Source: a virus (taxonomy: Duplodnaviria; Caudoviricetes). From it: a stretch of 64,000 nucleotides of DNA. Positions 939 to 60,321 of this stretch are shown piece by piece. The stretch is from the IMG/VR virus record IMGVR_UViG_3300031851_000001. One strand, given 5' to 3'. Positions within the stretch are counted from its first letter, which is position 1; each line of letters starts with the position of its first letter. Made by a program: the position numbers and the translations under genes. The notes under the pieces are model-generated. The model ran no database searches and was not told the DNA's origin. It saw nothing but the letters and a program-made list of their open reading frames with translations.

Positions 939-1406
939 ATGAGGCACGAATTGGCATATAGCGGAAGGTTTCGACCAAAGAACCCAACTAAATACAAGGG
1001 TGACCCTACAAAGATTATTTATCGTTCCATGTGGGAATTTAAGTTTTTTCGTTATGTAGATGAACATCCTGATGTTGTATGGTGGCAAAGTGAAGAGGTA
1101 GTAATACCATATATGTCTCCTATTGACGGAAGAAGGCACAGGTATTTTCCTGATGTTATTGTTCATAGGAAAATAGCGAGTGGCGAACAGAAAACTTTGA
1201 TGATTGAAATTAAACCGGCTGCACAGACAAAGCCACCTGATAGAAGTAAAATGAAAACGAGTAAAGGTCGGGTATCCCGCAGATATCTAAACGAGGTAAA
1301 GACATATGGCGTCAACGAAGCGAAATGGAAAGCAGCTAGAAAATTCTGCGCTGACCGTGGTTGGGCATTTGAAATTTACACAGAACACGAACTGGGATTA
1401 AAGTAA
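939..1406 (+). CDS. gp4: Head completion nuclease gp4
   Basis: YSGRFRPKNPTKYKGD, YRSMWE, YFPD and IEIKP motifs typical of gp4 (TnsA-like). Confidence 0.92.
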   Translation: MRHELAYSGRFRPKNPTKYKGDPTKIIYRSMWEFKFFRYVDEHPDVVWWQSEEVVIPYMSPIDGRRHRYFPDVIVHRKIASGEQKTLMIEIKPAAQTKPPDRSKMKTSKGRVSRRYLNEVKTYGVNEAKWKAARKFCADRGWAFEIYTEHELGLK

Positions 1407-6886: not shown

Positions 6887-7336
6887 CTAACCTTTAAGGA
6901 ATTCTTTTTCACCGCGGTTGATTTTAATCTTTTGCGGTTTCTTTTCCTCTGGGATAACATTTTCTAAATGCACTGTTAAAATACCTGCATTTAATTCAGC
7001 TCCATGGATTTCAATAGTATCCATTAATGTAAATTCTCTTTTGAAGCTTCGTGCTGAAATACCTTTATGAAGATAGTTTTTATCATCATCAGTATCTTTA
7101 TTACCAGCAATGGTTAGTACACCCAACTTACGTGAAATATCCAAATCATCATAATCAAAACCAGCAATCGCTAACTGAAGTTCGTAGCGATCATCGTCTA
7201 GTTTGACAACATTATAAGGTGGATATTTTGGGGATGTAGTTGGTAGTGTTGTTGATGTCATTCTATCTAACATTCGGTCAAAGCCGATAAAGAATGGATC
7301 ATTAAGCATATTCGCATTAAATGTGCGTGTGTTCAT
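6887..7336 (-). CDS. hsp20: Small heat-shock protein Hsp20/IbpA
   Basis: FFIGFDRML, YPPYNV, LAIAGF, YLHKGISARSF, GILTVHL: alpha-crystallin domain. Confidence 0.95.
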   Translation of the reverse strand: MNTRTFNANMLNDPFFIGFDRMLDRMTSTTLPTTSPKYPPYNVVKLDDDRYELQLAIAGFDYDDLDISRKLGVLTIAGNKDTDDDKNYLHKGISARSFKREFTLMDTIEIHGAELNAGILTVHLENVIPEEKKPQKIKINRGEKEFLKG

Positions 7337-7765: not shown

Positions 7766-8281
7766 CTATTCTCCAGTGCTTCCAAACCCTCCGTCTCTAT
7801 CAGTTTTTTGCTCTGGCGCTGTTTTGGTTTCTGTTAACTTAATTTTATTTACTTTTTCAACAATACATTGTGCTAGACGTTCACCGCTGGTAATTGATAC
7901 TAAACTATCTGTTTCGTTTAATAACATAATGTATGTTGGATCTATATAATCTGAGTCAATAATTCCAGTGCCATTTGCCAAGCTTAAACCTTTTTTCAAG
8001 GCAACACTTGATCTAATAAACATTTTCATTACATGTTTTTCTGGTATATCAAAAATTAAACCAGTTGGAATAAGTACACGAGTGTCAGGCGGTAATTGAA
8101 AACAATGCTCTTCTTTCCCTACTCCTTTTACTGCAATTTGTACTGCCTTATTCCAGTTATTATATGCCTGTAAACGATCGCCTCGTTTAAAACAAGCTTT
8201 TAAGTCAAATGCAGCTGATCCCTCTGTAGCGTATTCAGGTAATTCAGCATTTTCGTTCATTCTATAAATTTTCATTATCAC
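7766..8281 (-). CDS. dut: Trimeric dUTPase
   Basis: GSAAFDL, RSS, GIIDSDY, RLAQ and RDGGFGSTG motifs. Confidence 0.95.
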   Translation of the reverse strand: MIMKIYRMNENAELPEYATEGSAAFDLKACFKRGDRLQAYNNWNKAVQIAVKGVGKEEHCFQLPPDTRVLIPTGLIFDIPEKHVMKMFIRSSVALKKGLSLANGTGIIDSDYIDPTYIMLLNETDSLVSITSGERLAQCIVEKVNKIKLTETKTAPEQKTDRDGGFGSTGE

Positions 8282-11350: not shown

Positions 11351-12211
11351 CTATTTTTTACCTTTGTATGTTTTTTGGTTTGAAGATTTATCCGCTGTTG
11401 CTGATAAACCCAGTGATCCAATTGCTCCCATGTTACCTTTAAAGATATACGAACCAATATGGTTGATTTGCATCCAAGGACACATCCATACCTTCATACC
11501 AGCTTCACGCGCTTTTTGACAAAAGAAGTAATCTTCACTCAAATAACGTTTGGTTCTGGGATCAATAATACAATCAAAGTAAGCCATAATTTCGTTAGAT
11601 CCGTCAAACTTTTCAGTTCTTGCATGATCTGGTTTATAACTATACTCTGGGTATGCTGCTTTGTATGTTTCAAATGTTTTTCGTGGAATACACATAAAGC
11701 CTGTACCACCTTCGCCAATTTCTAATGGCTGTGATAGTTGAAAGCTTGACATTTTATCAACTGGATTAAAAACATAATCAGCAGTGTATTGGTCTAATAG
11801 GAACGGGTTTTCATCGGCTTTACCTAGTTCAGCAGCTCGAGCAACCTTTTCCCATGCGATTGTTTTCTTAGGGTATGGACCTGTAACGATATTGTATTTT
11901 TCTGGATCTGATACTTGTACTGCAATCATACCAAAAATATCTCTTGGATCAAAAGCAATATCCGAATCAATAAACACTAAGTGAGTACAATCCGATCTCA
12001 TAAACTCATCGGCAACATAGTTACGTGCTCGTTGAATTAAACTTTCATTAAACAAATAGTAAAACTTTACAGTAATACCATTAGCTGCGCACATCATTGC
12101 AAGATCGGTACATGATTTAGTAAACGATCCACTGCAATTCCCTCCATACATTGGCGTCCCAATAAAGATTTTATATTGTTTTAGTTCGTCAACGCTGATT
12201 TCAATTTTCAT
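11351..12211 (-). CDS. GT-A fold (GT2-like) glycosyltransferase
   Basis: IGTPMYGG, RARN, FIDSD (DxD), LSEDYFFC, HIG. Confidence 0.75.
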   Translation of the reverse strand: MKIEISVDELKQYKIFIGTPMYGGNCSGSFTKSCTDLAMMCAANGITVKFYYLFNESLIQRARNYVADEFMRSDCTHLVFIDSDIAFDPRDIFGMIAVQVSDPEKYNIVTGPYPKKTIAWEKVARAAELGKADENPFLLDQYTADYVFNPVDKMSSFQLSQPLEIGEGGTGFMCIPRKTFETYKAAYPEYSYKPDHARTEKFDGSNEIMAYFDCIIDPRTKRYLSEDYFFCQKAREAGMKVWMCPWMQINHIGSYIFKGNMGAIGSLGLSATADKSSNQKTYKGKK

Positions 12212-12843
12212 ATTTCAATTTGCTCCAAATCGTTTTCTGCACGTGTAATGGCTTGAAGTCGCAGAATGTCTGCAGCCACGTCGTGTTTACTATCATGTGC
12301 TTTAAAATTATATTCCCATTTAGCAGTATTAGATACAGGAACAAAACCATTTATTTTAGGGAAATCAAACTTGGCATCAATAAATGTACGAGTATCACGT
12401 ACAGCCCAATACTTAAGGTAATCATTCATAAGTGAAGTCTTATTTGCGTATTGTGCTAATCTCTCTAGTATTACTGGATCAAAAGAATTAGATCTTGACC
12501 ACCATCGCTCAACCTTATTAGATGATCTTAAATAGTCAATTAACTTTTCCATAAATTGAACTGGTGTAAGATCGTTTTCTGATGGTTTTAGATTAACTCT
12601 TAATGCAGGTGGTTGGTCAAGCCACCATTGTAAATCACGATCGTTATATTTACATCCGTGGTTTTGTACTTGGTCTTTAATATTAAACTTAGCTTGTTGC
12701 ATGCCAAGTACCAACTCTTTAAAAGAATATGGATTTTCTGTAAATCGACTCCAATCAAAGGTCGTGTACGAGCAATCAATCGCTGGTACCTCGCGTGAGT
12801 TTTGACCAATGGTTTCGAAGTCAATAATAAAGTGTGTGCTCAT
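12208..12843 (-). CDS. dexA: DexA-like DEDDh 3'-5' exonuclease
   Basis: FIIDFETIG, WSRSNSFDPVIL, YWAVRDTRT, HDSKHDVAADIL. Confidence 0.85.
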   Translation of the reverse strand: MSTHFIIDFETIGQNSREVPAIDCSYTTFDWSRFTENPYSFKELVLGMQQAKFNIKDQVQNHGCKYNDRDLQWWLDQPPALRVNLKPSENDLTPVQFMEKLIDYLRSSNKVERWWSRSNSFDPVILERLAQYANKTSLMNDYLKYWAVRDTRTFIDAKFDFPKINGFVPVSNTAKWEYNFKAHDSKHDVAADILRLQAITRAENDLEQIEI

Positions 12844-14045
12844 TATATAAATGCCTCTAGTGTATCTGCTTTAGTAATATAGTCGGCCTTCTGACTATGA
12901 TTATACTGCATAATGTAGTCCGTGTCAACCATTTTTGCGTTACCTTCAATATATTTTTTCACTTCGCCTGCCATGTCTTTTGCAGTTTGAACTGGAACGT
13001 TTTGGCAAATATGGTTAGATGATTGCTTTGGATTAAGCAATTCAAAGTCTTGTGGCAATCCCATAATAGTCATAGCTTCTCTATATGTAATGAAACGATC
13101 TTCATCTGGGTGTGTTAACATTTTAGGATAATGTCCAACAAAAGCACCAATATAATCTTTAGGAATAGTTACACCACGTTTCATAATGTTACCACCTGAT
13201 TTTAGCTTTTCATATTTACGCATAGATTTTTCAGCTTCGTTATCATAGCCATGCTTAGCCATCCATTCAGAAACCTGTTTAAAGTTATATCCATTACGTT
13301 CAATATATGTAAATACACATAAACCAGATTTAGTAAACTGATTGTCAACTAATTCAGAATGTTCTTTGTGTGTTCTACCACCATGTATCTCTTCTAAAAC
13401 AAACTTATAGTAAGGATTATCTGATGGAGTCTTATTACTGATTGGTTCCATTTGAAAGTTTGATGTTACCTCACGTATTACTTCTTCAATAGGTTTGTGT
13501 GGTCTATTGAAATATCCAAGCAATGGTGTTTGTGTATCTTTCCAAAAGAAATAAAACGAACGCTCACGTACTTGTGGTGCGCCATGTAATAGAGATCTTG
13601 TTCTATATACAGACATGGTGTAACCGTTTTTCTTACCAATTTCTCTTAATTGGGCTCTAACGTTTGTACCAATTTTACCTGCAAATGCTGGAGCATTCTC
13701 ACCCCAGAACACTTTTGGTTTATATTCGCCTAAGATATATTCTGCAGTCTTTCCCATCCACTGGTTATTTGGATTATGATCGCCATAACCGTGAGACATC
13801 ATAGATAAACCAGCACACGGACAAACAGATGATACCACATCAGCTCTTTCATTTACAGGTGGTGCTTCGCCTTGGTCCAACAGATAATAATTAATTCTAT
13901 TATCATAATAATTTAAAATGTGGCTATCGTTTGCTTGAAAACCATCGTACGACATAAAGTGTAGTGGTTCAGTTCCAAATGCTTGTTGTGATCCAATAGT
14001 TTCGCCACCAATTAATGGAACAATAGATGCGTGTGTAATACTCAT
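12843..14045 (-). CDS. C5-cytosine methyltransferase homolog with atypical motif I
   Basis: Motif IV CPCAGLS, VI GENAP, VIII PQVRER, IX/X REAMTIMGLP and QNVPV. Motif I reads VPLIGG rather than FxGxGG. Confidence 0.75.
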   Translation of the reverse strand: MSITHASIVPLIGGETIGSQQAFGTEPLHFMSYDGFQANDSHILNYYDNRINYYLLDQGEAPPVNERADVVSSVCPCAGLSMMSHGYGDHNPNNQWMGKTAEYILGEYKPKVFWGENAPAFAGKIGTNVRAQLREIGKKNGYTMSVYRTRSLLHGAPQVRERSFYFFWKDTQTPLLGYFNRPHKPIEEVIREVTSNFQMEPISNKTPSDNPYYKFVLEEIHGGRTHKEHSELVDNQFTKSGLCVFTYIERNGYNFKQVSEWMAKHGYDNEAEKSMRKYEKLKSGGNIMKRGVTIPKDYIGAFVGHYPKMLTHPDEDRFITYREAMTIMGLPQDFELLNPKQSSNHICQNVPVQTAKDMAGEVKKYIEGNAKMVDTDYIMQYNHSQKADYITKADTLEAFI

Positions 14046-14062
14046 TATTTACCTTTCTGATA

Positions 14063-15316
14063 TTAGAAGAATGACTCTAAGCCAATCGTTGGCTTTTCTG
14101 GAATTGGAAATTCTTCTAAGTTTGGCGCAACATAATTTGGATTTATGCTGGTCATAATCTTATTATTGAGGAATGTACCGTCATAATATTCTGGTTTTAA
14201 AATTGTTTTTTGTAGTAGTTCTAACAAATGATTATATTTTGCTGGATCGTCCTTTAACATTTGAATACGCTCAGCTAATTGTTCTGGAGATTTAACTCTT
14301 AGAAAATCAGGAATATTTGTATGTCTTTGCTCGTCGTAAGTTGGATGTAAAAATGGAATTACACCAGCGTGGATCATTTCAATATATTTTGAAGTTACCC
14401 AACCTTTTTTAATTGGAATGATAAAAGTAAATTTAACATCTTGTAGTTTTTCTTGCAGCGCGTCAATTTTAAGCGATCCTTTAAACCGCGTATCACCTTC
14501 CATAATTTCTTCTGACCATTTGCCATAAATGTCAACATCCTCATTATGGTCGAGGATCCATTCTTTTAACAATTTATAACGCGATGGTTTGCCTTCGTTT
14601 AATACAATCATAAAGTCTGTATTACGATTTCTATTTATGTCCGTTCCATGTTCGTAATCTAAACAAAAAGCTGTTTCCATACCTGCATATACAGATTTAA
14701 CTGATATTGGTGTACGTGTTTGGTCTTCATACGAATTAATTTTATTTGAAATATATTCATAATCGTATTGACCAAGTGACATTGTTGGTGGATGCATCAT
14801 ATCTCTGGCTTGATTCATAACATACCGTGGATCATTTACAATTTCAACATAGTTTGGTCTACAATCATTTAACCACGATGTAATACCAGTCGTATAACCT
14901 TTTGTCATATCAAGTACTGTTGATATTTGAGTTGCGTCGTTTACTTTAACAATTCTATCGGGTATCGTAACAGAACCAACTTGACCAACCATTAGTACAG
15001 TATAATCAAGTTCAATATTATTATTTTTGAGATAGTTTTTTACATGGTCATAATAATCTTGGTTGTAATGCTCAGGTCCAATAGACCTTTTGTTCCAAAC
15101 ATCTACTACGTTGTTATATGGAAATAATTCGTATTGCTCTGCTTCATTTAAATAACCATAATCAGTACGTCCAATAATATGGAATGTAATATCTGGGTTA
15201 AGGTTTGCTAATGCGCGTAGCGTACAGCTTGCCTCGTTGTCGCCACCAATTGGCGAATATTTATTTCTCTGGAACTTTACCGATTTGCCAAGTTTTCCAA
15301 ATCCAATGTGTTTCAT
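14063..15316 (-). CDS. GT-B DNA glycosyltransferase, T4 beta-glucosyltransferase-like
   Basis: C-terminal domain (DIYGKW, FKG, VTSKYIEMIHAGVIPF, LRVKSPEQLAERIQML) parallels the T4 BGT C-domain as I recall it. Confidence 0.7.
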   Translation of the reverse strand: MKHIGFGKLGKSVKFQRNKYSPIGGDNEASCTLRALANLNPDITFHIIGRTDYGYLNEAEQYELFPYNNVVDVWNKRSIGPEHYNQDYYDHVKNYLKNNNIELDYTVLMVGQVGSVTIPDRIVKVNDATQISTVLDMTKGYTTGITSWLNDCRPNYVEIVNDPRYVMNQARDMMHPPTMSLGQYDYEYISNKINSYEDQTRTPISVKSVYAGMETAFCLDYEHGTDINRNRNTDFMIVLNEGKPSRYKLLKEWILDHNEDVDIYGKWSEEIMEGDTRFKGSLKIDALQEKLQDVKFTFIIPIKKGWVTSKYIEMIHAGVIPFLHPTYDEQRHTNIPDFLRVKSPEQLAERIQMLKDDPAKYNHLLELLQKTILKPEYYDGTFLNNKIMTSINPNYVAPNLEEFPIPEKPTIGLESFF

Positions 15317-15319
15317 AAT

Positions 15320-15679
15320 CTAATCCTTCATCAATTCTATAAACGTATAGGGAAGCATGGCCTTGTCATCAATATAGTAAACACCATATGGTTTACCGTA
15401 TTGTATTTCATCGTAAGGTACTTTATGCTCATTTAACCACGTTGTAGTAATATCACCAACATCCTCTATGACTTTATTTATGTCTCCACGATGAGTCAAC
15501 ATTCTTCGCGCAGTACTAATAACAATTTTATATTCAAGCTTTTTTGCTTTAGTAAGTGCTTCTATCATTTCAGGGATTGGCTGTGCTAATCCATATTTTC
15601 TATATGTATCCTTTTCGTCATGATTAGGAATACATATAGTATCGTCTAAATCAACGACTAATGTTTTTTGCGTAGTCAT
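15320..15679 (-). CDS. HAD phosphatase (EcbF/BcbF-like)
   Basis: VVDLDDTI (DxDxT), TAR, GKP, YIDDKA. Confidence 0.85.
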   Translation of the reverse strand: MTTQKTLVVDLDDTICIPNHDEKDTYRKYGLAQPIPEMIEALTKAKKLEYKIVISTARRMLTHRGDINKVIEDVGDITTTWLNEHKVPYDEIQYGKPYGVYYIDDKAMLPYTFIELMKD

Positions 15680-17120
15680 TTACGTAATCTTTCATTCTTT
15701 GTTGTCTGTCTGGACAATCATAGTGTAATTTAATGCAGGTAGCAATCAATAAAGCACCACCATCAATTATTTCATTATATACCGTCGGATAGTATTTGTC
15801 AACTAGTTTACTAAATGACCAGGAAACATAATCAGGATATTTGTTTCCTGTAACTAATTCAGAATAGCCATGATATAAGTCATGTGATAGTTTACACATA
15901 TCATATAAGTAATCACCACCGCAGCCAACATGGTCTCCGTACGAACCGCGAGGATCAAGCAATGTGATACTATCATTATATGGATTATATAGAATATTAC
16001 CAAAGTGTAAATCGCCATGCATTGCCGAAACAGGTTCAGCTTTATCAAGGCAGCGTTGTGCGACACCGTTATAAAAATCTTTAGAACATGTTAGACGTTC
16101 CGATGTTTTATTGACCCACATCTTTTCAGCATTATCATGGAAGTCAGCAGTAAATTCTAATGTGGCTTTACCATGGAAGTGAGTACGCATAGCCAGAATA
16201 ACTTTTTCAATTAAGTAATCAATAGTACTATTAGAAATCTCTTCGTGTGCAAACAAATCAGATAATAGAATTCCTGACTCGTATGACATTGACAATGCGT
16301 AATCGTCTTTAAGAATTTTAGGAACAAACATACTCTGAACTGGATTGAGAGTTTCAAACCAATTCTTTTCGTTCATAATTGTTCTTACAGCAAATGTATT
16401 GTTATGAGATGGTATTTTAGTAATGGCGTTGATGTCTGATCTATATTCAAACGAATTAAACTCACGTGCCTTAAATGTAAGGAACTCTGCACAAGTTTTA
16501 TGGTACGATGCGATATCGCCAATGTCATACCAACGATCAGTGTTTATATTATTAAAGGCACCATATAATTCAAGCGCATCGGATATTTCATAACCATCAG
16601 TATCATAAAAACAATCTGAAGCTTTTATCCCATCACTAAAACTATATAAACCGACAAGCGCGTCAGCATTTGGAACTGTGTTTTTTGGTTTATTAAAATA
16701 GTTGTTACCATCCCACATGCACCAAGCAAAGTGATCATCGACTTGTTTAGTTAATAGAAAATCAGAACCAAGTGGCAGCTCATCCTCAAGGATAATAGCA
16801 TCACCTAACCAAACAACAAGTGGCAATGATTTATCATCTAAGCTTTCAATACCAACTGATATAGCATCACGGGGACCATTAAGAGATCCCTGCTTTACGC
16901 ATTTAACTACATCGTATTTTTTAGCCCATTCTCTGATGTCATTATGTTTACCATCAACGACAACGATTTGGTTTATTCCTGTCGTATTATTATAAATGGA
17001 TTCAATAATATACTCGATAGTTGGTTTGCCGTGTACACGTACCATTGCCTTTGAACAGTTTGATGTTAACGGTTTAAGACGTGTGGCTTCACCTGCTGCC
17101 GGTATTACTATGTTTATCAT
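15651..17120 (-). CDS. Sugar nucleotidyltransferase fused to APH/choline-kinase-like domain
   Basis: IPAAGEATRL..K N-domain and HGDLHFGNIL / LLDPRG C-domain. Confidence 0.85.
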   Translation of the reverse strand: MINIVIPAAGEATRLKPLTSNCSKAMVRVHGKPTIEYIIESIYNNTTGINQIVVVDGKHNDIREWAKKYDVVKCVKQGSLNGPRDAISVGIESLDDKSLPLVVWLGDAIILEDELPLGSDFLLTKQVDDHFAWCMWDGNNYFNKPKNTVPNADALVGLYSFSDGIKASDCFYDTDGYEISDALELYGAFNNINTDRWYDIGDIASYHKTCAEFLTFKAREFNSFEYRSDINAITKIPSHNNTFAVRTIMNEKNWFETLNPVQSMFVPKILKDDYALSMSYESGILLSDLFAHEEISNSTIDYLIEKVILAMRTHFHGKATLEFTADFHDNAEKMWVNKTSERLTCSKDFYNGVAQRCLDKAEPVSAMHGDLHFGNILYNPYNDSITLLDPRGSYGDHVGCGGDYLYDMCKLSHDLYHGYSELVTGNKYPDYVSWSFSKLVDKYYPTVYNEIIDGGALLIATCIKLHYDCPDRQQRMKDYVNDYAKNISR

Positions 17121-17751
17121 AATTTAATTTCCATTCACTATATTCATCTTCTAACATTGCCCACTGGCAACGAGTGTATTTATGTTCCGCTGTCTTATCC
17201 CATATGATCCACATATAGGCAATCATACCACCAATTTGGTCTTTTTTATCAACAGGTTCTAATATGTTAGAATCAAATCTTACTCTGTCTGATAGATATA
17301 TTATATCACTAGGTGGGTTAGATGTAAACAGTTTATTTCGCTTCTTACCTTCAAGAAACGTTAAACGTAAAAACATTGCAGTGTAATCGTATTCGTCTGT
17401 CCATTTTTCTGCTAGTTTGCGTGGCAAATCTTTATGGTATGGAGGGTTAGTGATTACACCTTTAACGTCTTTATCTTTTGGTAACTCTAATGCGTCGTAT
17501 GGTGTATTTATGTTAGTGAGAGTATTAGGATATACGTTAAGGTCGTAGGATATAACATCGTGGCCATTACGTAAAAGCTCTGATGAAATATGCCCACGAC
17601 CAGCGCATGGCTCTATAACTTTATGCGGTACATTACCGTATTTACATAGAATATATGTTGCTAAGGGAGGAGTAGGATAAAAATCATTCACCGTTCTATT
17701 TGGATCATTCTTTTTAACGCCAACATATATGTCCGTTAAGTTATTCGCCAA
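17089..17751 (-). CDS. DNA amino-methyltransferase (N6-adenine type)
   Basis: DFYPTP, EPCAGRG (SAM motif), ITNPPY. Confidence 0.8.
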   Translation of the reverse strand: MANNLTDIYVGVKKNDPNRTVNDFYPTPPLATYILCKYGNVPHKVIEPCAGRGHISSELLRNGHDVISYDLNVYPNTLTNINTPYDALELPKDKDVKGVITNPPYHKDLPRKLAEKWTDEYDYTAMFLRLTFLEGKKRNKLFTSNPPSDIIYLSDRVRFDSNILEPVDKKDQIGGMIAYMWIIWDKTAEHKYTRCQWAMLEDEYSEWKLNYDKHSNTGSR

Positions 17752-18253
17752 GTGAAGTTACCCGTACATTTGCTTCTTTAAACATAGGTAAACTCTTTTC
17801 TTCCCATACCTTTTGCCAATCACCTTTAACACTTTTATCTGATGATATGACTACACGTTTAATACCCGCTTGAATAACAAGTTTGGTACAATCAGAACAT
17901 ATAGGTAATCCATATACGTATAAAGTAGAGTCTTTTAGTGATACACCGGCATATAACGCATTCATAAGTGCATTCATTTCAGCATGTACTACAAGACTAT
18001 GTTTGGTAGGACGATCGTTTAAACGATCTTCAGTATCTTCAATACCTTTTGGAAACCCATTATAGCCTGTAGCCAATATGCGTCTATCATCATTAACAGC
18101 AACACAACCAATTTTACTTGAAGGGTCTTTGCTCCAATCAGCGATCATAGTCGCTAATGACATAAAACGGTTATCCCATTTAAGGCGGTTTGTATCGTCT
18201 TCTTTCATTCGTCTTCCCATATAAGCATAATAGCTTTCCCTACTTGCACTCAT
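17741..18253 (-). CDS. cd: dCMP deaminase
   Basis: SKDPSSKIGCV, GYNGFP, HAEMNA, PICSDC. Confidence 0.92.
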   Translation of the reverse strand: MSASRESYYAYMGRRMKEDDTNRLKWDNRFMSLATMIADWSKDPSSKIGCVAVNDDRRILATGYNGFPKGIEDTEDRLNDRPTKHSLVVHAEMNALMNALYAGVSLKDSTLYVYGLPICSDCTKLVIQAGIKRVVISSDKSVKGDWQKVWEEKSLPMFKEANVRVTSLGE

Positions 18254-18948
18254 TGTTTTACCAAATCAAAGTGACGTTCATAGGTATGTAAGTTCATTAC
18301 CTGCCACGTAAGCATACCCTTTTGAATAGTAAAGTGCTTATTGCCGGGAAGTTTACATTGTTCATTCCATTGAGCAACAAACTTATCCATAAGATATTGT
18401 GCCCACGCATAATCATTCTTGTAGCCAAACACAACATCATTAGAACGCATTTGAGATACCATATGTAAGATACCATCACGAATATAGAATGTTTGTGCAT
18501 TAGTACAGATGAAATCAGACTTACCACCTTCGTCAAACTCAACCCAAATAGATGGACGATTATAAATCATTTGAGCACGACGGCTATCAGGGTTACTCCA
18601 TAGTTCATCAAAAGCATTTTGGAATTGGTTATGATATTTTTTAGAGAATACTAAATGGCCATAGTTGGAATTAATATTACCGTGCGGATCTGCTGAATAT
18701 TGCCATGCGGCAGGAGCAGGTTTGGATGGTCCATAGATATCATTAATGTTTGTTGATTGCGACTCATACCATGCCAACTCCGCATTAATATATTCTTGTA
18801 CAGGTTTACCAAAGATAGCAGGTTCATCAGCGACAAACGATGCACCAAGTAGCTCGATTGTTTTTGCACCAGTTTTATCTGTAGTAAATCGTTCAGCTTT
18901 TAGTTCGTCAATAAAATAATTACGAATGTCACTTACGCTATTCATCAT
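18250..18948 (-). CDS. gp42: dCMP hydroxymethyltransferase gp42
   Basis: DKTGAKTIELLGASFVADEP, INSNYG, DSRR, DFICT (catalytic Cys), RSNDVVFGYKND (Asp specifying dCMP). Start taken at the SD-preceded ATG. Confidence 0.9.
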   Translation of the reverse strand: MMNSVSDIRNYFIDELKAERFTTDKTGAKTIELLGASFVADEPAIFGKPVQEYINAELAWYESQSTNINDIYGPSKPAPAAWQYSADPHGNINSNYGHLVFSKKYHNQFQNAFDELWSNPDSRRAQMIYNRPSIWVEFDEGGKSDFICTNAQTFYIRDGILHMVSQMRSNDVVFGYKNDYAWAQYLMDKFVAQWNEQCKLPGNKHFTIQKGMLTWQVMNLHTYERHFDLVKQ

Positions 18949-19261
18949 CTTCTCCTTTAAATCTATCATCGGTATCAATTGGATCAGACTCAAGTGTTGT
19001 CATACAAAGGATCATCATTTGAGTTAATGCGTGTGATACGTGTGGTAAGCCAGACTCTGGGTCAATATCTTCACCAGAAATATACGCCAAAAGGTGACGT
19101 TGAATAGAAGAGTAATGACGAGATACTGGAAATTTATTTATGTCATGCCGCCAATTGTTTTCACCATACTTTTCAGCACCAAAACCAAATACCTTAGCAG
19201 CTTCAATGATAGCTTCTGGCGGAACTAAATGGATTTTTGGTTTGTCATTATCAAATTTCAT
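18938..19261 (-). CDS. dATP/dGTP diphosphohydrolase-like (DUF5664)
   Basis: KFDNDKPKIHLVP, GAEKYGENNW, RH, DPESGLPHVSHA. Confidence 0.85.
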   Translation of the reverse strand: MKFDNDKPKIHLVPPEAIIEAAKVFGFGAEKYGENNWRHDINKFPVSRHYSSIQRHLLAYISGEDIDPESGLPHVSHALTQMMILCMTTLESDPIDTDDRFKGEDDE

Positions 19262-19273
19262 ATACTTGTTTCC

Positions 19274-19900
19274 TTAAACATTGTGGTTATATATTGTGCG
19301 ATCATCACCGCGTGTATTGTAGAAATACTTTATACGTCGTACACCATCGTGGTCAGTTGTCCAGTTATTAGAGAACTTTTCTTGACATGGTCTGAGGTTT
19401 TGGCGTATCGTATCAAAAGGTACAACAGCGCGCCAACGAACGTCGTAAGTGTTTTCAGATAGTTTATTATAACAGCCAAAGATGATAATGTCAACACATT
19501 TTGGGTACAATCTGCGATTTCTTGCTAATTTATTTGCCATATAGTTTGGTATAGTCAACCATTTCTTTTCCATATGGTTTGGTAATGTTCCGGGATCTTG
19601 TGAGTTTTTAACCTCAGCTCTCCAACGGTTCCACTCAACATCCCAATTATGAGTTTCAGGTTTGGTGTAGTCAAATTCAGCAGGGTTCATAACAGCACCT
19701 TGACGTACTAAAGCAAACTCTAGTATAACGCCTGCATAAGTATGTGCTAAGACGGTTGAATGACTTCTTCCACGTCGACGGGTTGGACACTCAAACATTT
19801 CTTGTGCCATAGTTTGAATGTGAGAAACCTCACCCTCGTTTAACTCGAGGATAAGGGGTTCTGGGAGTTTTAGCGGGAGTTGTAAAGAAGACTCAGACAC
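19274..19900 (-). CDS. Hypothetical, possible PD-(D/E)xK nuclease
   Basis: E...WDV...AEVK spacing. Confidence 0.4.
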   Translation of the reverse strand: MSESSLQLPLKLPEPLILELNEGEVSHIQTMAQEMFECPTRRRGRSHSTVLAHTYAGVILEFALVRQGAVMNPAEFDYTKPETHNWDVEWNRWRAEVKNSQDPGTLPNHMEKKWLTIPNYMANKLARNRRLYPKCVDIIIFGCYNKLSENTYDVRWRAVVPFDTIRQNLRPCQEKFSNNWTTDHDGVRRIKYFYNTRGDDRTIYNHNV

Positions 19901-39101: not shown

Positions 39102-39956
39102 ATGAAAGTTTTAGTTACAGGCGCAACGGGTTATATCGGATCACATGTTTGTTACAAACTGAAACAAAATGGACACTATGTTGAAGGCTGGGATATTAAT
39201 TTCCATGGTGAGTATAACGACGTATCTTTTATTGACTTGTTTGAAAAGGTAGACATTACAAACATAATGTATAATGAACAAAAGTTTGATGCCGTTGTTC
39301 ATCTTGCTGGTAGAAGTATAGTACCACAAAGTCTTAAAGAGCCATCTGAATATTATAGAGTAAATGCAATGGGTACTGACCATTTACTTAAAAAAGTTAA
39401 AACACCAAACTTTATATTCGCCAGTACTAGCTCGGCATTTGAAATGGCATCGCCATATGCTCGTAGCAAAGTAGCAGCTGAGGATATAATTAAGGAGAAA
39501 GCCAATGGGCACACTATTTTTCGCTTTTATAATGTTTCTGGCACTAATGGGACATTACGGCAGCTCGGTGTTCCAAGTCATCTTATTCGCGTGGCTAGTT
39601 TGGTTGCTCACGGACAATTACCCGATATTAAAATCTTTGGCACAGACTACCCTACTCGTGATGGGACTTGCATACGTGATTATATACATGTTAGTGATCT
39701 TTGTAGCGCTATCGTAAAAGCAGTAGAAACCGGTCCAACAAATACACCATATGAATGCCTTGGTTCTGCGCAAGGGTATTCGGTATTAGATGTAATTGAT
39801 TCAATGGAAAGAGTTACTGGTAAAAAACTTAAAAAGGTTTTAACAGATAGAAGAGCAGGTGATGCAACTTCATGTATTGTTGATAATTTATCGGAATTGT
39901 GTGAGCTTACTAAAACACTTGATGATATGTGCCTAGACCAATATAATCTAGCTTAG
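39102..39956 (+). CDS. galE: UDP-glucose 4-epimerase (extended SDR)
   Basis: VTGATGYIGSH, HLAG, YARSK (YxxxK), RDYIHV. Confidence 0.9.
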   Translation: MKVLVTGATGYIGSHVCYKLKQNGHYVEGWDINFHGEYNDVSFIDLFEKVDITNIMYNEQKFDAVVHLAGRSIVPQSLKEPSEYYRVNAMGTDHLLKKVKTPNFIFASTSSAFEMASPYARSKVAAEDIIKEKANGHTIFRFYNVSGTNGTLRQLGVPSHLIRVASLVAHGQLPDIKIFGTDYPTRDGTCIRDYIHVSDLCSAIVKAVETGPTNTPYECLGSAQGYSVLDVIDSMERVTGKKLKKVLTDRRAGDATSCIVDNLSELCELTKTLDDMCLDQYNLA

Positions 39957-40425: not shown

Positions 40426-40739
40426 TTTTTTGTTCCCTTCTGTCTAATAATCTTAGTATTAGATTTGGTTTCTAAGTGTTTTAGACGCATTTCCATATCG
40501 TCAATCTTTTGAGTGATTTTTGGATACTTTTTACGCCAAGCATTTTCCGGCTGCTCTAACCATGTCCAACCCCAACGTTCAACCAAGAAATCCATTCCTC
40601 TATCAAATCGAGCGTATAACCATAAAGCCATTCGCGTGGTGCTGAACCATGTCGAAAACGCGAGTCCAATAATAGACCCGCCTATCGCAGTATAGATCCA
40701 TAAACGATCTCCTGCCATATTAGATAACATTTCCCACAT
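40422..40739 (-). CDS. Membrane-anchored hypothetical protein
   Basis: N-terminal TM, Trp-rich, C-terminal coiled coil. Confidence 0.75.
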   Translation of the reverse strand: MWEMLSNMAGDRLWIYTAIGGSIIGLAFSTWFSTTRMALWLYARFDRGMDFLVERWGWTWLEQPENAWRKKYPKITQKIDDMEMRLKHLETKSNTKIIRQKGTKK

Positions 40740-41470
40740 TATTCATTTCCCTTTGTATATTTACAATAATGGTTCATACCATGATCGTATGCTCCATCAA
40801 AAGGCATTCCTTTTTTCAGTGCCCTCCAACGACCTCTCCATTGGTCTTTAACTCGTTGCCATTTGGAAGCTTTTCTAATTTTTCCGTAGTAATTGATATA
40901 ACGCGGAGCGGTAGTATGTCTATACCCGAGGAATGCGAACGGTACTTTTGGTACGATATCATTATTGTTGACATGCCGATAGTGAGGAATATGATTAAAG
41001 CTTTTAACAAATTTTCGTGTTCCTGCTCTTGGAGATCCATATGTATATAACGCATCACATACGTCAGGCAGTCGGCTCGCTGCAATAGTAGCCATTGCTC
41101 CACCAAGTGAATGCCCAGTTATATAAAACATCTTTCCTTCTAATTTCATTTTTGCCATGGCTGTTCTAATTTCATCCCAGATTTTTTCAATTTCTGTTTG
41201 GAAACCATTATGAACATATCCATAGCCATTTGCTGCTTTATCTGGTAAAGCATTTAAGTCTGCTTTAATATCAGAAAACTCAGAAGGCTCAGTACCTCGG
41301 AAACATAATACTATTTCGCTTTTATTTGAAACGATATGAACTTGAGCTCCATCGTTTTCAATAAATTTGTGCGAAGTGTAACCAACTTTTTTATATGCAG
41401 CCTTGGCTTCTTTTCCATCCATATATGCTATTTGTGCGCATTGCGCCATTAATGAACATTTATTTTCCAT
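40739..41470 (-). CDS. Class 3 lipase / alpha-beta hydrolase
   Basis: FRGT, VHNGF, TGHSLGG (GxSxG), DIVPKVP, H. Confidence 0.9.
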   Translation of the reverse strand: MENKCSLMAQCAQIAYMDGKEAKAAYKKVGYTSHKFIENDGAQVHIVSNKSEIVLCFRGTEPSEFSDIKADLNALPDKAANGYGYVHNGFQTEIEKIWDEIRTAMAKMKLEGKMFYITGHSLGGAMATIAASRLPDVCDALYTYGSPRAGTRKFVKSFNHIPHYRHVNNNDIVPKVPFAFLGYRHTTAPRYINYYGKIRKASKWQRVKDQWRGRWRALKKGMPFDGAYDHGMNHYCKYTKGNE

Positions 41471-49869: not shown

Positions 49870-50448
49870 ATGGCAGAATTTAGTGGCGCGGTTGACGCGG
49901 CGTATTACATGGATGAAAACTACAGCTTAATTGAAGTTGTATATACAAATCCTAATAACGAAAAAGTTAATTACATGGTTGAAGTAGGAGACAATGCAGA
50001 TTATAATGCGTTAGTTTCAGAAGGTTGGGATCCAGAAAAGCTTGTTGAAACTACTTCAGAATTTAAAAGAGAAAGCGCTCGTGAATTTGGTGAATTAGTT
50101 AATGCGCAAGCGCAAGCCTTGGCAGAGGAAATGCTAGGAATGCGTTTCCTTATGGAACGTAAAGAAATTCTCGAAAAGCAAACAGCTGAGCTAGACCAAC
50201 AGACACAAGAAAAAGAAAATCAACTATTAAGCCTTGACCAAGATGTTAAAGTAAAAACAAACAAAGTTGACCACGCAGTGTATGACTTTATTCGCGACAA
50301 TAACGAAAGCAAAGAAGAACTCTTTAAGTTTAAACTTTGGGCATTAGAACAAGACGTGGTTAAAAAATCTGACAAATCAATTAAGTCTTCTATACGTAAG
50401 TCAACTCGTATTACATCAGCAATGGCGATTTACAACGATCTCTTATAA
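49870..50448 (+). CDS. Coiled-coil protein, possible fibre chaperone
   Basis: Follows the fibre-like gene. Confidence 0.5.
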   Translation: MAEFSGAVDAAYYMDENYSLIEVVYTNPNNEKVNYMVEVGDNADYNALVSEGWDPEKLVETTSEFKRESAREFGELVNAQAQALAEEMLGMRFLMERKEILEKQTAELDQQTQEKENQLLSLDQDVKVKTNKVDHAVYDFIRDNNESKEELFKFKLWALEQDVVKKSDKSIKSSIRKSTRITSAMAIYNDLL

Positions 50449-51165
50449 AAAACTTGTAGGTCTATTGGTTTGAAAAGGATTAAGACACGCTATGATAAAG
50501 TCTACTTCCTTTTTGCTCAATCCTGTTTCTAAAAGTTTTGTCGTAAATTTTGGTACTATATTTTTGTAAGTTGTTTGATAATTTTTCTTGGCTAACTCTG
50601 AATTTTTCTCATCATTTAAATATGGTACACTACCTATCATGCAAGTATATATTACACAGGCATACGCAAAGTAATCATCTGTATAGTGTACGTTAGCTAG
50701 TAAACTTTCATATGGTCTACTAAAATGTCTACCTGATCCTAACAAAGGTGTGAGAATTACATCAAAACGCACTGAAGCATCAAAATCAAAATACCTAAAC
50801 TGGCCTTCGTTATAAGCTATGTTTTTAAGAGTATAGTCTAATAAAATATAATTACTGCTATGAACAATATCAAATAATTCTTTAGTGTATTTTGTGAATT
50901 TTCTTATAAGTTCTTTAGTTGGTGTGATATGAACACAGTCGAGTGGTTCACCTTCAACCCATTCTTTTATAAGTCTGCCATTGTTATAATCTATTATTTC
51001 TGGCAAAGACTCGTGGTTTATATGTAGGAGTGCTTCGTATTCATAATACGCTTGGTCTTTGTAACAGTAAGTTACATTATCTTTTTTAACGCGATATACG
51101 TTGCGCGTTGATTTTGGTTTAACACGCAAATGCTCGTCGAACATGACTTCATAGCCTGTTAACAT
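50443..51165 (-). CDS. Ser/Thr protein kinase-like
   Basis: CYK (VAIK-like Lys), E helix, LLDYTLKNI catalytic loop, DFD, D-x-F/Y-A. Confidence 0.75.
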   Translation of the reverse strand: MLTGYEVMFDEHLRVKPKSTRNVYRVKKDNVTYCYKDQAYYEYEALLHINHESLPEIIDYNNGRLIKEWVEGEPLDCVHITPTKELIRKFTKYTKELFDIVHSSNYILLDYTLKNIAYNEGQFRYFDFDASVRFDVILTPLLGSGRHFSRPYESLLANVHYTDDYFAYACVIYTCMIGSVPYLNDEKNSELAKKNYQTTYKNIVPKFTTKLLETGLSKKEVDFIIACLNPFQTNRPTSFL

Positions 51166-51177
51166 TTTTTAATATCC

Positions 51178-51199
51178 TATAAATACATCTATATTTATA
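51178..51199. promoter_or_regulatory. Crossing late promoters
   Basis: TATAAATA + 51178-51185 and - 51192-51199. Confidence 0.75.
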
Positions 51200-51207
51200 A
51201 TGAAAGT

Positions 51208-59797: not shown

Positions 59798-60321
59798 TTT
59801 AGTTCTCCGAATGGAATGTCGTGTATCCCCATATGAAAGACGATACGTTCCTTTGTTGGCGATTTTACACCATGTGGTTTTTTTGTATTAAGTACAGTCA
59901 TAGTGTCATATACTATGGAGTCTCTTGTATTCCCATCATCAACATATAATTCGCCAGTATTTTCAGTTACAGGTATCAGTACTGAGCAATGGCTCTTAAC
60001 ATCAACATGAACTGGCAACTCTCCACCTTCTAATACTCTAAAAAAGTTGCAGCGGAATTCTTGTGGTCTTATTTCAAATGTATTCCATATTTTTTTAATC
60101 AACCTAAGAAGTGGTCTATTAAAATTGTGTATCTCTTGGACAAAGAACTTATTCATTTCTTTACCACCTGTTGCATCACTAACATATTCTGAATATAGTT
60201 TATTACTATCAGTCCATTCGCCAGTTATATAATTTTCCCAAAAAATTGGGTCAACCTTATAATCAGTTTTTATAAACGAATCATTTATCCATGTTTTATC
60301 CATGTAAATCTTCCTGACCAT
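59794..60321 (-). CDS. 2OG-Fe(II) oxygenase-like
   Basis: VHVD...PHGV...ERIVF. Confidence 0.75.
   Translation of the reverse strand: MVRKIYMDKTWINDSFIKTDYKVDPIFWENYITGEWTDSNKLYSEYVSDATGGKEMNKFFVQEIHNFNRPLLRLIKKIWNTFEIRPQEFRCNFFRVLEGGELPVHVDVKSHCSVLIPVTENTGELYVDDGNTRDSIVYDTMTVLNTKKPHGVKSPTKERIVFHMGIHDIPFGELK

What the first reader, a model, noticed from the sequence alone, without database searches (positions are those of the whole stretch)
11351..19261. Cytosine hypermodification cluster with its own NDP-sugar pathway (sugar unknown)
Seen: one co-oriented block holds a gp42 dCMP hydroxymethylase (Asp in RSNDVVFGYKND), a BGT-like GT-B, a HAD phosphatase, a nucleotidyltransferase-kinase fusion, a GT-A enzyme, dCMP deaminase, DexA and two MTases. 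Established: T4 glucosylates hmC using host UDP-glucose and needs no sugar genes, whereas RB69-type phages that arabinosylate carry NTP-transferase/phosphatase genes. Inference: this phage makes a non-glucose donor and may add a second sugar via the GT-A, giving a possibly new base. No sugar isomerase is visible in the window; GalE (39102) may feed the pathway.
Basis: partly seen in the sequence, partly recalled or inferred. Interest (0 to 1): 0.8.

Follow-up and report, generated by a model that had tools for sequence, protein, structure and literature searches.

The report
Phage sugar-hydroxymethylcytosine DNA modification cluster
An abundant, uncultured marine T4-like phage carries genes to swap cytosine for hydroxymethylcytosine and then attach a sugar that the phage activates itself. 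Both tricks are known separately, but I found no description of this combination in the papers I could search, and the chemical product is unknown.

Summary

- **Hydroxymethylase.** The thymidylate-synthase homolog is a T4 gp42-type dCMP hydroxymethylase (E 1e-60, about 50% identity). It keeps Asp at ThyA positions 169 and 177, so it is not the RB69-type 5-hydroxycytosine synthase, which has Asn at 169.
- **Sugar activation.** A nucleotidyltransferase-kinase fusion and a small HAD phosphatase are distant homologs of the RB69/HY126 AfhE/AfhF pair.
- **Transferase.** The 417-aa protein folds as a GT-B whose best structural match is T4 beta-glucosyltransferase.
- **Conservation.** The module recurs in 80 viral contigs. 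It also occurs in Pseudoalteromonas phage XG4 and Enterococcus phages 9183 and Planchet.
- **Missing genes.** No arabinose-5-phosphate isomerase is present in the window, in near-complete relatives or in those cultured phages, so the sugar is unknown.
- **GT-A.** It is a true GT-A, but it sits next to gp45 even in phages with no hydroxymethyl-base pathway, so a second-sugar role is weak.
- **GalE.** The link to this pathway is not supported.
- **C5-methyltransferase.** A conserved, catalytically intact C5-methyltransferase remains unexplained.

This is a new variant of a known kind. The scan saw the same combination earlier in an Enterococcus phage.

The parts
18938..19261 (-). MazG/MazZ-like nucleoside-triphosphate pyrophosphohydrolase (107 aa). 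Candidate dCTPase that supplies dCMP; this role is inferred.
   Evidence: PF18909 E 1.5e-28 and phrog_801. Overlaps the start of the hydroxymethylase gene. It is the most conserved gene of the block in relatives, at 83-92% identity.
18250..18993 (-). dCMP hydroxymethylase of the T4 gp42 type (5hmdCMP synthase)
   Evidence: PDB 1b49 E 1.1e-60 and about 50% identity to T4-like gp42 genes. Asp at ThyA positions 169 and 177, Asp at position 143, and the catalytic Cys are all present. Only 25% identical to RB69 gp48, which has Asn169. All 34 clade homologs read RSND....ND.
17741..18253 (-). dCMP deaminase
   Evidence: PF00383 E 4.9e-22 and phrog_174 E 2.3e-48. Present in 25 of 26 related loci.
17089..17751 (-). 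Amino-methyltransferase (NPPY motif; probably N6-adenine)
   Evidence: phrog_799 E 1.3e-37. Motifs EPCAGRG and TNPPY are visible in the translation.
15651..17120 (-). Bifunctional sugar(-phosphate) kinase and sugar-1-phosphate nucleotidyltransferase with AfhE-like architecture
   Evidence: PF00483 E 1.5e-11 and weak APH, ABC1 and fructosamine-kinase hits. N-terminal match to LicC 1jyk, E 4e-8. The kinase motif HGDLHFGN...DPRG aligns with RB69 gp52 and the N-terminus aligns with RB69 gp53. 237 environmental homologs.
15320..15679 (-). Small HAD phosphatase (AfhF, RB69 gp51 and GmhB-like role)
   Evidence: 1xpj E 3.5e-18 and 9iqw E 0.056. TIGR01689 capsule biosynthesis phosphatase E 7.6e-24, below its cut-off. 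31% identical to RB69 gp51. phrog_1238.
14063..15316 (-). GT-B glycosyltransferase, structurally closest to T4 beta-glucosyltransferase. Predicted DNA hmC glycosyltransferase.
   Evidence: AlphaFold2 model with pLDDT 89.7 and pTM 0.90. T4 BGT is the top hit in Foldseek (E 2.7e-9) and in VIA-align (Z 21.8, rmsd 3.5, 306 residues; next best Z 18.9). A weak profile alignment puts invariant R246, K310 and E313 opposite BGT residues 195, 269 and 272. 433 uncharacterised homologs.
12843..14045 (-). C5-cytosine methyltransferase family protein with intact catalytic motifs. Role unexplained.
   Evidence: PF00145 E 7.4e-17. The PC Cys, EN and QxRxR motifs are invariant in 21 orthologs. Follows the GT-B in 51 of 51 loci, yet is only about 35% identical between lineages.
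12208..12843 (-). DexA-type 3'-5' exonuclease
   Evidence: PF16473 E 8.4e-13 and phrog_255. 30-36% identical to annotated dexA (exonuclease A) genes of T4-like phages.
11351..12211 (-). GT-A glycosyltransferase with a DxD motif. Acceptor unknown; membership of the DNA pathway is doubtful.
   Evidence: AlphaFold2 model with pLDDT 84.5. Top matches are STIV A197 (Z 16.7) and Mimivirus R699, and viral GT-A proteins in BFVD. D82 and D84 are invariant. Homologs of 44-55% identity lie next to gp45 in DLP6, Cr30, phiM12 and phage OC.
22461..22871 (-). Second MazG-like pyrophosphohydrolase outside the reported interval. Possible nucleotide-pool enzyme.
   Evidence: PF01503 E 9e-9 and phrog_671. No detectable similarity to T4 gp56.
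39102..39956 (+). GalE-type UDP-hexose 4-epimerase homolog. Not shown to belong to the system.
   Evidence: E. coli GalE E 2.4e-38. TIGR01179 E 5.4e-61, below its cut-off. A close homolog is found in only one of four near-complete relatives and none in XG4.

Best explanation
The block is a pre-replicative cytosine-replacement pathway joined to post-replicative glycosylation that uses a sugar donor the phage makes itself.

**Nucleotide steps.** These follow by analogy with T4.
1. A MazG-type pyrophosphohydrolase, and possibly the dUTPase-family enzyme at 7766-8281, turn dCTP into dCMP.
2. The gp42-type enzyme converts dCMP to 5-hydroxymethyl-dCMP. The dCMP deaminase diverts part of the dCMP towards dTTP synthesis.
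3. After phosphorylation by a kinase I did not find, the phage polymerase incorporates hmdCTP.

**Donor steps.** These follow by analogy with HY126 AfhE/AfhF and with the HldE/GmhB ADP-heptose pathway.
1. The kinase domain of the 489-aa fusion phosphorylates C1 of a host sugar phosphate.
2. The HAD phosphatase removes the distal phosphate.
3. The N-terminal nucleotidyltransferase makes the NDP-sugar.

**Transfer step.** This is inferred from the fold and from gene linkage. The BGT-like GT-B flips out hmC in duplex DNA and glycosylates its hydroxyl group.

**What is shown and what is not.** Gene identities, signature residues, folds and linkage are shown. Every chemical step is inferred.

**The sugar.** It is not determined. 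My rough odds are 45% a pentose (D-arabinofuranose from host arabinose-5-phosphate, or ribose), 35% a hexose (including plain glucose), and 20% something else.
For: - **Synthase type.** Homology to T4 gp42 and the Asp169, Asp177 and Asp143 signature. The paper that defines Asn169 as the mark of 5-hydroxycytosine synthases is PMC13326640.
- **Donor enzymes.** The nucleotidyltransferase-kinase and HAD proteins have catalytic motifs, and they match RB69 gp52:53 and gp51. They also hit the same PDB entries (1jyk, 1xpj) that were reported as top hits for the RB69 and DLP3 enzymes.
- **Transferase.** T4 BGT is the best structural match of the GT-B. T4 AGT and the HY126 DNA glycosyltransferase also rank high.
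- **Linkage.** In related loci the hydroxymethylase is present in 26 of 26, and an activation module in 51 of 51.
- **Recurrence.** The same hydroxymethylase, HAD, nucleotidyltransferase-kinase and GT-B set recurs in two distant lineages: Pseudoalteromonas phage XG4 and Enterococcus Denvervirus phages. Both have Asp169.
- **Non-orthologous replacement.** Fifteen loci carry a HAD-kinase fusion plus a PF01467 nucleotidyltransferase instead. The same three activities are kept.
- **Same pair in a post-replicative route.** Phage DLP6 places the activation pair beside a TET/JBP enzyme and a TET-associated glycosyltransferase.
- **Location.** The block lies among early DNA-metabolism genes (gp43, gp44, gp45, gp46/47) and behind consensus sigma-70-type promoters.
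- **Occurrence.** The DNA is present in at least 14 seawater metagenome runs and in 6 seawater RNA runs.
Against: - No enzymology or nucleoside analysis exists for this clade.
- The GT-B has no significant sequence similarity to BGT (hhalign probability 6%). Its acceptor is inferred only.
- No dNMP kinase was found. No sugar-phosphate isomerase was found either.
- Only 64 kb of a longer genome could be read.
- A C5-methyltransferase with intact catalytic motifs is conserved in every locus. That is hard to reconcile with complete replacement of C.
- The nucleotidyltransferase-kinase is only about 25% identical to the RB69 enzyme, so its substrate may differ.
Confidence: 0.65

Rival explanations
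1. Same pathway, but the product is ordinary glucosyl-hmC. The trio converts glucose-6-phosphate to glucose-1-phosphate through the 1,6-bisphosphate and then to an NDP-glucose, which makes the phage independent of host UDP-glucose supply. The base would then not be new.
For: The best structural match of the GT-B is a glucosyltransferase. The nucleotidyltransferase domain scores with glucose-1-phosphate uridylyl- and thymidylyltransferase models, though far below their cut-offs. A GalE-type UDP-hexose epimerase lies in the window. No pentose-specific isomerase is encoded.
Against: The HAD belongs to the same small-phosphatase subfamily as the AfhF/gp51 enzymes of the arabinose pathway. The characterised phage systems with this trio make a pentose donor (PMC13326640, PMC12838424). 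The GalE homolog is not conserved with the module.
Confidence: 0.18
2. The GT-A at 11351-12211 adds a second sugar to the glycosylated base, giving a disaccharide-modified cytosine.
For: It is a true GT-A fold with an invariant DxD motif. It is present in 49 of 51 related loci. In DLP6 and Cr30 its homolog co-occurs with a TET/JBP dioxygenase. RB69, DLP3 and RL38J1 use several glycosyltransferases in series.
Against: Homologs of 44-49% identity occupy the same gp46-X-gp45 position in phiM12 and Ochrobactrum phage OC. Neither phage has a hydroxymethylase-type synthase or a TET/JBP enzyme. More distant homologs lie among tail-fibre and glycan genes in a cyanophage and a pelagiphage. There is no detectable relation to the TET-associated glycosyltransferase family.
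Confidence: 0.2
3. The sugar-activation genes and the GT-B serve a non-DNA acceptor, such as a host envelope glycan or a phage protein. The hydroxymethylase then gives plain hmC DNA.
For: GT-B enzymes of similar fold glycosylate many kinds of acceptor. The HAD matches a capsule-biosynthesis phosphatase model. The acceptor has not been tested.
Against: The GT-B is strictly linked to the hydroxymethylase in three distant phage lineages. The best fold matches include three DNA glycosyltransferases. The genes lie in the early DNA-metabolism block.
Confidence: 0.08
4. The synthase makes 5-hydroxy-dCMP as in RB69, so the system is an ordinary member of the arabinosyl-5-hydroxycytosine family.
For: The donor-activation genes are homologous to those of that family.
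Against: Position 169 is Asp in the window and in all 34 clade homologs. Every tested 5-hydroxycytosine synthase has Asn there. Identity is about 50% to T4 gp42 against 25% to RB69 gp48. No arabinose-5-phosphate isomerase is present.
Confidence: 0.05

Closest known systems
Phage T4 hmC pathway (gp56, gp42, cd, gp1, alpha- and beta-glucosyltransferases)
   Same: A gp42-type dCMP hydroxymethylase with the same active-site signature, a dCMP deaminase, a DexA exonuclease and an amino-methyltransferase. The GT-B has T4 BGT as its best structural match. The setting is the T4-like replication module.
   Different: T4 takes UDP-glucose from the host and encodes no donor pathway. The GT-B here has no sequence similarity to BGT. 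The pyrophosphohydrolases show no similarity to gp56. No gp1-type kinase was found. T4 has no C5-methyltransferase.
Arabinosyl-5-hydroxycytosine systems of RB69, DLP3 and HY126 (Afh proteins; Lee et al. NAR 2026, PMC13326640)
   Same: A bifunctional nucleotidyltransferase-kinase (AfhE, gp52:53), a small HAD phosphatase (AfhF, gp51) and GT-B DNA glycosyltransferases, all clustered with a thymidylate-synthase homolog.
   Different: Those synthases carry Asn169 and make 5-hydroxy-dCMP; here position 169 is Asp, the hmC type. Those phages encode an arabinose-5-phosphate isomerase and a nucleotide kinase in the cluster; here neither is present. Identity to the Afh-type enzymes is only 25-31%.
Enterococcus Denvervirus phages 9183 and Planchet, and Pseudoalteromonas phage vB_Psh_XG4
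   Same: The same set and order of genes: an Asp169-type synthase, HAD, nucleotidyltransferase-kinase, and a homolog of this GT-B (31% and 45% identity). XG4 also carries the C5-methyltransferase homolog.
   Different: I found no nucleoside analysis of these phages in the papers I could search. Related enterococcal phages VPE25 and VFW have modified cytosines of undefined structure (PMC4999554). The Enterococcus phages lack the C5-methyltransferase and have a dUTPase and a nucleotide kinase in the operon.
Shewanella phage Thanatos cytosine-pentose modification (PMC12838424)
   Same: A marine T4-like phage with a thymidylate-synthase homolog next to a 561-aa nucleotidyltransferase-phosphotransferase fusion. 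A pentose is attached to cytosine.
   Different: The Thanatos synthase is among the Asn169 enzymes that produced 5-hydroxy-dC. Its UDP-xylose pyrophosphorylase TH1_063 was not compared here.
ADP-heptose pathway (HldE kinase/adenylyltransferase plus GmhB phosphatase)
   Same: The same chemical logic: a sugar phosphate goes to a 1,omega-bisphosphate, then to a sugar-1-phosphate, then to an NDP-sugar. The variant subclade even uses a PF01467 nucleotidyltransferase, the fold of the HldE transferase domain.
   Different: The kinase here is APH-like rather than of the PfkB family. No GmhA-type isomerase is present. The end use is in a phage DNA-modification setting.
Methyltransferase, TET and glycosyltransferase post-replicative systems (PMC8256090; bioRxiv 10.1101/2023.12.21.572611)
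   Same: A C5-methyltransferase sits next to a DNA-type glycosyltransferase. That preprint's survey notes GT-B enzymes near thymidylate-synthase homologs, clamps, methyltransferases, epimerases and APH phosphotransferases in viral contigs.
   Different: No TET/JBP dioxygenase occurs in four near-complete relatives. Here hmC is predicted to be made before replication.

Membership tests
T4-type dCMP hydroxymethylase (5hmdCMP synthase) | Full-length homology to T4 gp42 | tested here: met
   E 1.1e-60 to PDB 1b49 over residues 19-245. 49-50% identity to gp42 genes of T4-like phages.
T4-type dCMP hydroxymethylase (5hmdCMP synthase) | Asp at the position of E. coli ThyA Asn177 (cytosine specificity), an acidic residue at Leu143, and the catalytic Cys | tested here: met
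   The RSNDVVFGYKND and SDFICTN motifs align with T4 RSNDVVFGFRND and SDFMCTN. The rule comes from PMC13326640.
T4-type dCMP hydroxymethylase (5hmdCMP synthase) | The product is 5-hydroxymethyl-dCMP | not testable with these tools
   Needs expression and LC-MS.
5-hydroxy-dCMP synthase (RB69 gp48 type) | Asn at the position of ThyA Asp169 | tested here: not met
   Asp in the window and in all 34 clade homologs; RB69 gp48 reads RSQN.
T4 beta-glucosyltransferase family | GT-B fold most similar to BGT | tested here: met
   Top hit in Foldseek and in VIA-align (Z 21.8), on a model with pLDDT 89.7.
T4 beta-glucosyltransferase family | Detectable sequence homology to BGT | tested here: not met
   BLASTP E 6.7. 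hhalign probability 6%, although invariant R246, K310 and E313 fall opposite BGT residues 195, 269 and 272. No Pfam, NCBIfam or PHROG family was assigned.
T4 beta-glucosyltransferase family | Transfers a sugar to hmC in duplex DNA | not testable with these tools
   Inferred from linkage to the hydroxymethylase only.
Afh-type NDP-arabinose pathway (HY126, RB69, DLP3) | Bifunctional nucleotidyltransferase-kinase plus a small HAD phosphatase | tested here: met
   Domain order, catalytic motifs and weak homology to RB69 gp53, gp52 and gp51.
Afh-type NDP-arabinose pathway (HY126, RB69, DLP3) | Phage-encoded arabinose-5-phosphate isomerase (SIS domain) | tested here: not met
   No tblastn hit with RB69 gp55 in the window or in 80 loci. 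No PF01380 hit in four near-complete relatives, XG4, 9183 or DLP6.
Afh-type NDP-arabinose pathway (HY126, RB69, DLP3) | The donor is UDP-D-arabinofuranose | not testable with these tools
   Substrate specificity cannot be read from 25-31% identity.
GT-A glycosyltransferases | GT-A (Rossmann-like) fold with a DxD metal-binding motif | tested here: met
   Model pLDDT 84.5. Z 16.7 to STIV A197 and many GT-A hits. D82-x-D84 is invariant.
C5-cytosine DNA methyltransferases | Catalytic PC Cys, ENV-type Glu and QxRxR motifs | tested here: met
   PF00145 E 7.4e-17. C77, E116, N117, Q158, R160 and R162 are invariant in 21 orthologs.
C5-cytosine DNA methyltransferases | SAM-dependent methylation of cytosine in DNA | not testable with these tools
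   Motif I reads (V/I)PLIGG rather than FxGxGG. SAM binding was not assessed.

The most novel reading that the evidence does not exclude
This widespread marine T4-like clade, along with XG4 and the enterococcal Denvervirus phages, makes a hypermodified base not yet described. That base would be 5-hydroxymethylcytosine carrying a phage-activated non-glucose sugar such as D-arabinofuranose or ribose. The donor module is swapped within the clade, which would give different sugars in sister phages. The always-linked C5-methyltransferase-like enzyme would perform a second, non-canonical step on this DNA.
Probability: 0.35. Interest if true: 0.75.

Novelty: new variant of a known kind. Interest (0 to 1): 0.6.

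Why it matters
DNA hypermodifications determine which restriction, CRISPR and type IV defence systems a phage escapes or triggers. New sugar-modified bases have also become tools for epigenetic sequencing.

Two routes are known. T4 makes hmC and uses host UDP-glucose. RB69-type phages make 5-hydroxycytosine and their own UDP-arabinose. This cluster joins the hmC route to a self-made donor, which would widen the chemical space of glycosylated hmC.

The module is conserved in 80 viral contigs retrieved here. It occurs in many seawater metagenomes and in seawater RNA libraries, so a sizeable part of marine myovirus DNA may carry the base.

Three cultured phages carry the same module (XG4, 9183 and Planchet), so the prediction can be tested directly.

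Tried and rejected
- **Megablast against 50,697 phage records.** No match for the block, so there is no close cultured relative. The DNA polymerase is at most 43.5% identical to those of cyanomyoviruses.
- **Whole genome.** It is not held. The isomerase and kinase searches had to use relatives instead.
- **Tree of thymidylate-synthase homologs.** The deep nodes were unresolved, and my two outgroup rows were the wrong ORFs picked by length. I do not use the topology. Only the branch lengths are informative: T4 gp42 0.38, RB69 gp48 3.39.
- **hhalign of the GT-A family against the DLP6 TET-associated glycosyltransferase.** No relation was found.
- **Thymidylate-kinase family search in relatives.** No convincing hit. 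A T4 gp1-type dNMP kinase was not searched for.
- **TET/JBP route to hmC in this clade.** Rejected, with no hit in four near-complete relatives.
- **The GalE homolog as a conserved pathway member.** Rejected on distribution.
- **A choline or alcohol-phosphate donor.** I considered this because the nucleotidyltransferase domain's best PDB hit is LicC. It is unlikely, because a HAD phosphatase step implies a bisphosphate sugar intermediate and AfhE has the same best hit.
- **ORF 19274-19900.** It has no homolog in any related locus and contains a consensus promoter. It may not be a gene.

Full report
**What the window is**

The window comes from an uncultured T4-like phage. Around the finding lie the clamp loader gp44, the sliding clamp gp45, a family-B DNA polymerase, gp46/47-type nuclease subunits, UvsW, UvsY, the late sigma factor and a type II topoisomerase.

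No cultured phage resembles it at the DNA level. Its polymerase is at most 43.5% identical to those of cyanomyoviruses. The whole genome is not held.

The stretch 14063-17120 is found near-identically in at least 14 seawater metagenome runs and 6 seawater RNA runs. It is therefore a real and common marine virus. Its genes appear in RNA libraries, although contigs cannot prove transcription.

**The observation**

Ten co-oriented, abutting or overlapping minus-strand ORFs fill 11351-19261.

The thymidylate-synthase homolog matches T4 dCMP hydroxymethylase at E 1.1e-60. The active-site stretch is almost letter for letter the same, and identity to gp42 of T4-like phages is about 50%.

The other assignments are as follows:
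- The dCMP deaminase, the C5-methyltransferase family protein and the NTP_transferase domain pass the Pfam cut-offs.
- The 220-aa methyltransferase has an NPPY motif.
- The 211-aa protein is 30-36% identical to annotated dexA genes.
- The 119-aa protein has the HAD DxDxT motif and matches PDB 1xpj at E 3.5e-18.
- The 489-aa protein joins a sugar-1-phosphate nucleotidyltransferase domain to an APH-type kinase carrying the HGDxxxxN and DPRG motifs.

**Which base is made**

Lee et al. (NAR 2026, PMC13326640) showed that RB69, DLP3 and many others attach arabinose to 5-hydroxycytosine, not to hmC. The base is made by thymidylate-synthase homologs that carry Asn at the position of E. coli ThyA Asp169. 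All nine further Asn169 homologs they tested made 5-hydroxy-dC.

The window's enzyme keeps Asp at 169. It also has Asp at 177 and at 143, exactly as T4 gp42 does. It is only 25% identical to RB69 gp48, which reads RSQN. All 34 homologs in related contigs read RSND....ND.

The enzyme therefore passes the test for the hmC type and fails the test for the 5-hydroxycytosine type. The product itself was not measured.

**The donor pathway**

In HY126, as summarised in PMC13326640, the steps are:
1. AfhE phosphorylates arabinose-5-phosphate at C1.
2. AfhF removes the 5-phosphate.
3. AfhE then makes UDP-arabinofuranose.

The window's fusion protein and HAD are distant homologs of the RB69 counterparts. 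The HAD is 31% identical to gp51. The fusion is about 25% identical to gp53 and about 34% identical to gp52 over the kinase motif.

They also hit the same PDB entries that were reported as top matches for the RB69 and DLP3 enzymes. These are LicC 1jyk for the nucleotidyltransferase and 1xpj for the phosphatase. The HAD also scores with the capsule-phosphatase model TIGR01689, below its cut-off.

The logic is that of ADP-heptose synthesis by HldE and GmhB. A phosphatase step implies that the input is a sugar already phosphorylated at its distal carbon.

The pathway lacks the arabinose-5-phosphate isomerase of RB69. RB69 gp55 finds nothing in the window or in 80 related loci. The SIS family finds nothing in four relatives that are 91-100% complete. 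It also finds nothing in the full genomes of XG4, 9183 and DLP6.

The input must therefore come from the host, and its identity cannot be read from sequence. Arabinose-5-phosphate from host Kdo synthesis is possible in a Gram-negative host. From general knowledge, enterococcal hosts of the homologous module lack that metabolite, so ribose-5-phosphate or a hexose phosphate is as plausible.

**The transferase**

The 417-aa protein has no assigned family. It has no sequence similarity to BGT.

An AlphaFold2 model built from 37 homologs is confident, with pLDDT 89.7 and pTM 0.90. T4 beta-glucosyltransferase is its best match by two methods:
- Foldseek gives E 2.7e-9.
- An exhaustive VIA-align search gives Z 21.8, rmsd 3.5 Å over 306 residues, about 3 Z units above the next fold.

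T4 alpha-glucosyltransferase (Z 17.5) and the HY126 DNA glycosyltransferase (Z 16.5) also rank high.

A weak profile alignment puts the invariant R246, K310 and E313 opposite BGT residues 195, 269 and 272. From memory these BGT residues contact UDP. This is suggestive only.

'BGT-like GT-B' is therefore correct at the level of fold, not of family membership.

**Linkage**

The GT-B has 433 uncharacterised homologs. Eighty viral contigs encoding homologs at 50-100% identity were fetched. In those loci:
- All 26 loci with at least 6 kb upstream carry the hydroxymethylase, and 25 carry the deaminase.
- All 51 loci with at least 2.2 kb upstream carry an activation module.
- All 51 loci with at least 3.5 kb downstream carry the C5-methyltransferase homolog.
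- 49 of those 51 carry the exonuclease and the GT-A.

In 15 loci the fusion and the HAD are replaced. In their place are a HAD-kinase fusion and a PF01467 cytidylyltransferase-like protein. The same three activities are kept, but with a non-homologous transferase. This argues that the module's job is donor synthesis and that the donor varies within the clade.

The same gene set recurs in Pseudoalteromonas phage XG4 and in Enterococcus phages 9183 and Planchet. It comprises an Asp169 synthase, HAD, fusion protein and a homolog of this GT-B.

Stenotrophomonas phage DLP6 has no synthase homolog. It places the fusion and the HAD beside a TET/JBP domain and a TET-associated glycosyltransferase. There the same donor pair serves a post-replicative route.

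**The GT-A**

The 286-aa protein is a true GT-A:
- The model has pLDDT 84.5.
- It scores Z 16.7 to the STIV A197 glycosyltransferase.
- It matches viral GT-A proteins in BFVD.
- D82-x-D84 is invariant.

Its distribution does not follow hydroxymethyl bases. Homologs of 44-55% identity lie between gp46 and gp45 in DLP6, Cr30, phiM12 and Ochrobactrum phage OC.
- DLP6 and Cr30 have a TET/JBP enzyme.
- phiM12 has only a canonical-scoring thymidylate synthase, and OC has neither enzyme.

A second-sugar role is therefore possible but weakly supported.

**GalE**

The 284-aa protein at 39102-39956 is a GalE-type epimerase. A close homolog occurs in only one of four near-complete relatives and not in XG4. 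I do not count it as part of the system.

**An unexplained element**

The C5-methyltransferase homolog always follows the GT-B. Its catalytic Cys and its EN and QxRxR motifs are invariant. Yet orthologs are only about 35% identical where neighbouring genes are about 60% identical. No TET/JBP enzyme is found in relatives.

If all cytosines became hmC, its target carbon would be blocked. Replacement may be incomplete, or the enzyme may act on other DNA, or its chemistry may differ. None of these was tested.

**Verdict**

The most likely mechanism is hmC replacement followed by glycosylation with a phage-activated sugar of unknown identity (confidence 0.65).

It is a new variant of a known kind: the hmC branch of the thymidylate-synthase family coupled to an Afh/HldE-type donor pathway. 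A survey preprint notes such neighbourhoods in bulk. I found no characterisation of them.

An earlier follow-up in this scan reached the same reading for the Enterococcus phage operon.

Noticed in passing
L072:8354-9976 (also L028:8484-9973): In 15 of 51 related loci the nucleotidyltransferase-kinase and HAD are replaced. In their place are a 344-aa HAD plus APH-like kinase fusion and a 144-aa PF01467 cytidylyltransferase-like protein. This is a non-orthologous swap of the donor module within one phage clade.
   Followed up: partly
L005:6236-12598 (Stenotrophomonas phage DLP6): A cluster of a TET-associated glycosyltransferase (PF20691), a nucleotidyltransferase-kinase, a Tet_JBP domain inside an ORF annotated as SNF2, a HAD, and the GT-A homolog next to gp45. 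The genome has no thymidylate-synthase homolog and no PF00145 methyltransferase. This looks like a base J-like or hmU-type post-replicative glycosylation system.
   Followed up: partly
window 12843-14045: The C5-methyltransferase homolog has invariant catalytic motifs and is always adjacent to the GT-B. It evolves much faster than its neighbours, in a phage predicted to have no free C5 on its cytosines.
   Followed up: partly
window 18938-19261: The 107-aa MazZ-like pyrophosphohydrolase is the most conserved protein of the block (83-92% identity where neighbours are about 60%). It overlaps the hydroxymethylase start, which suggests tight functional coupling.
   Followed up: no
window 19274-19900: This 208-aa ORF has no homolog in any related locus and no family hit. 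It contains a perfect TTGACA-17-TATAAT site at 19494-19466. It may be an untranslated promoter region rather than a gene.
   Followed up: no
window 50443-53468 and 60296-61099: A protein-kinase domain gene, two radical SAM/SPASM genes and an Asp/Asn beta-hydroxylase family gene. They fit the peptide-modification island noted elsewhere in this genome by the scan.
   Followed up: no
window 939-1406, 6887-7336, 7766-8281, 40739-41470: A TnsA-like endonuclease, an Hsp20 small heat-shock protein, a trimeric dUTPase-family enzyme next to regA, and a class-3 lipase.
   Followed up: no
L004:4238-5344 (Pseudoalteromonas phage XG4): XG4 has an extra 368-aa ORF with weak GT47 and GT1-like hits between the GT-B homolog and the C5-methyltransferase homolog. 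It is a candidate second DNA glycosyltransferase.
   Followed up: no
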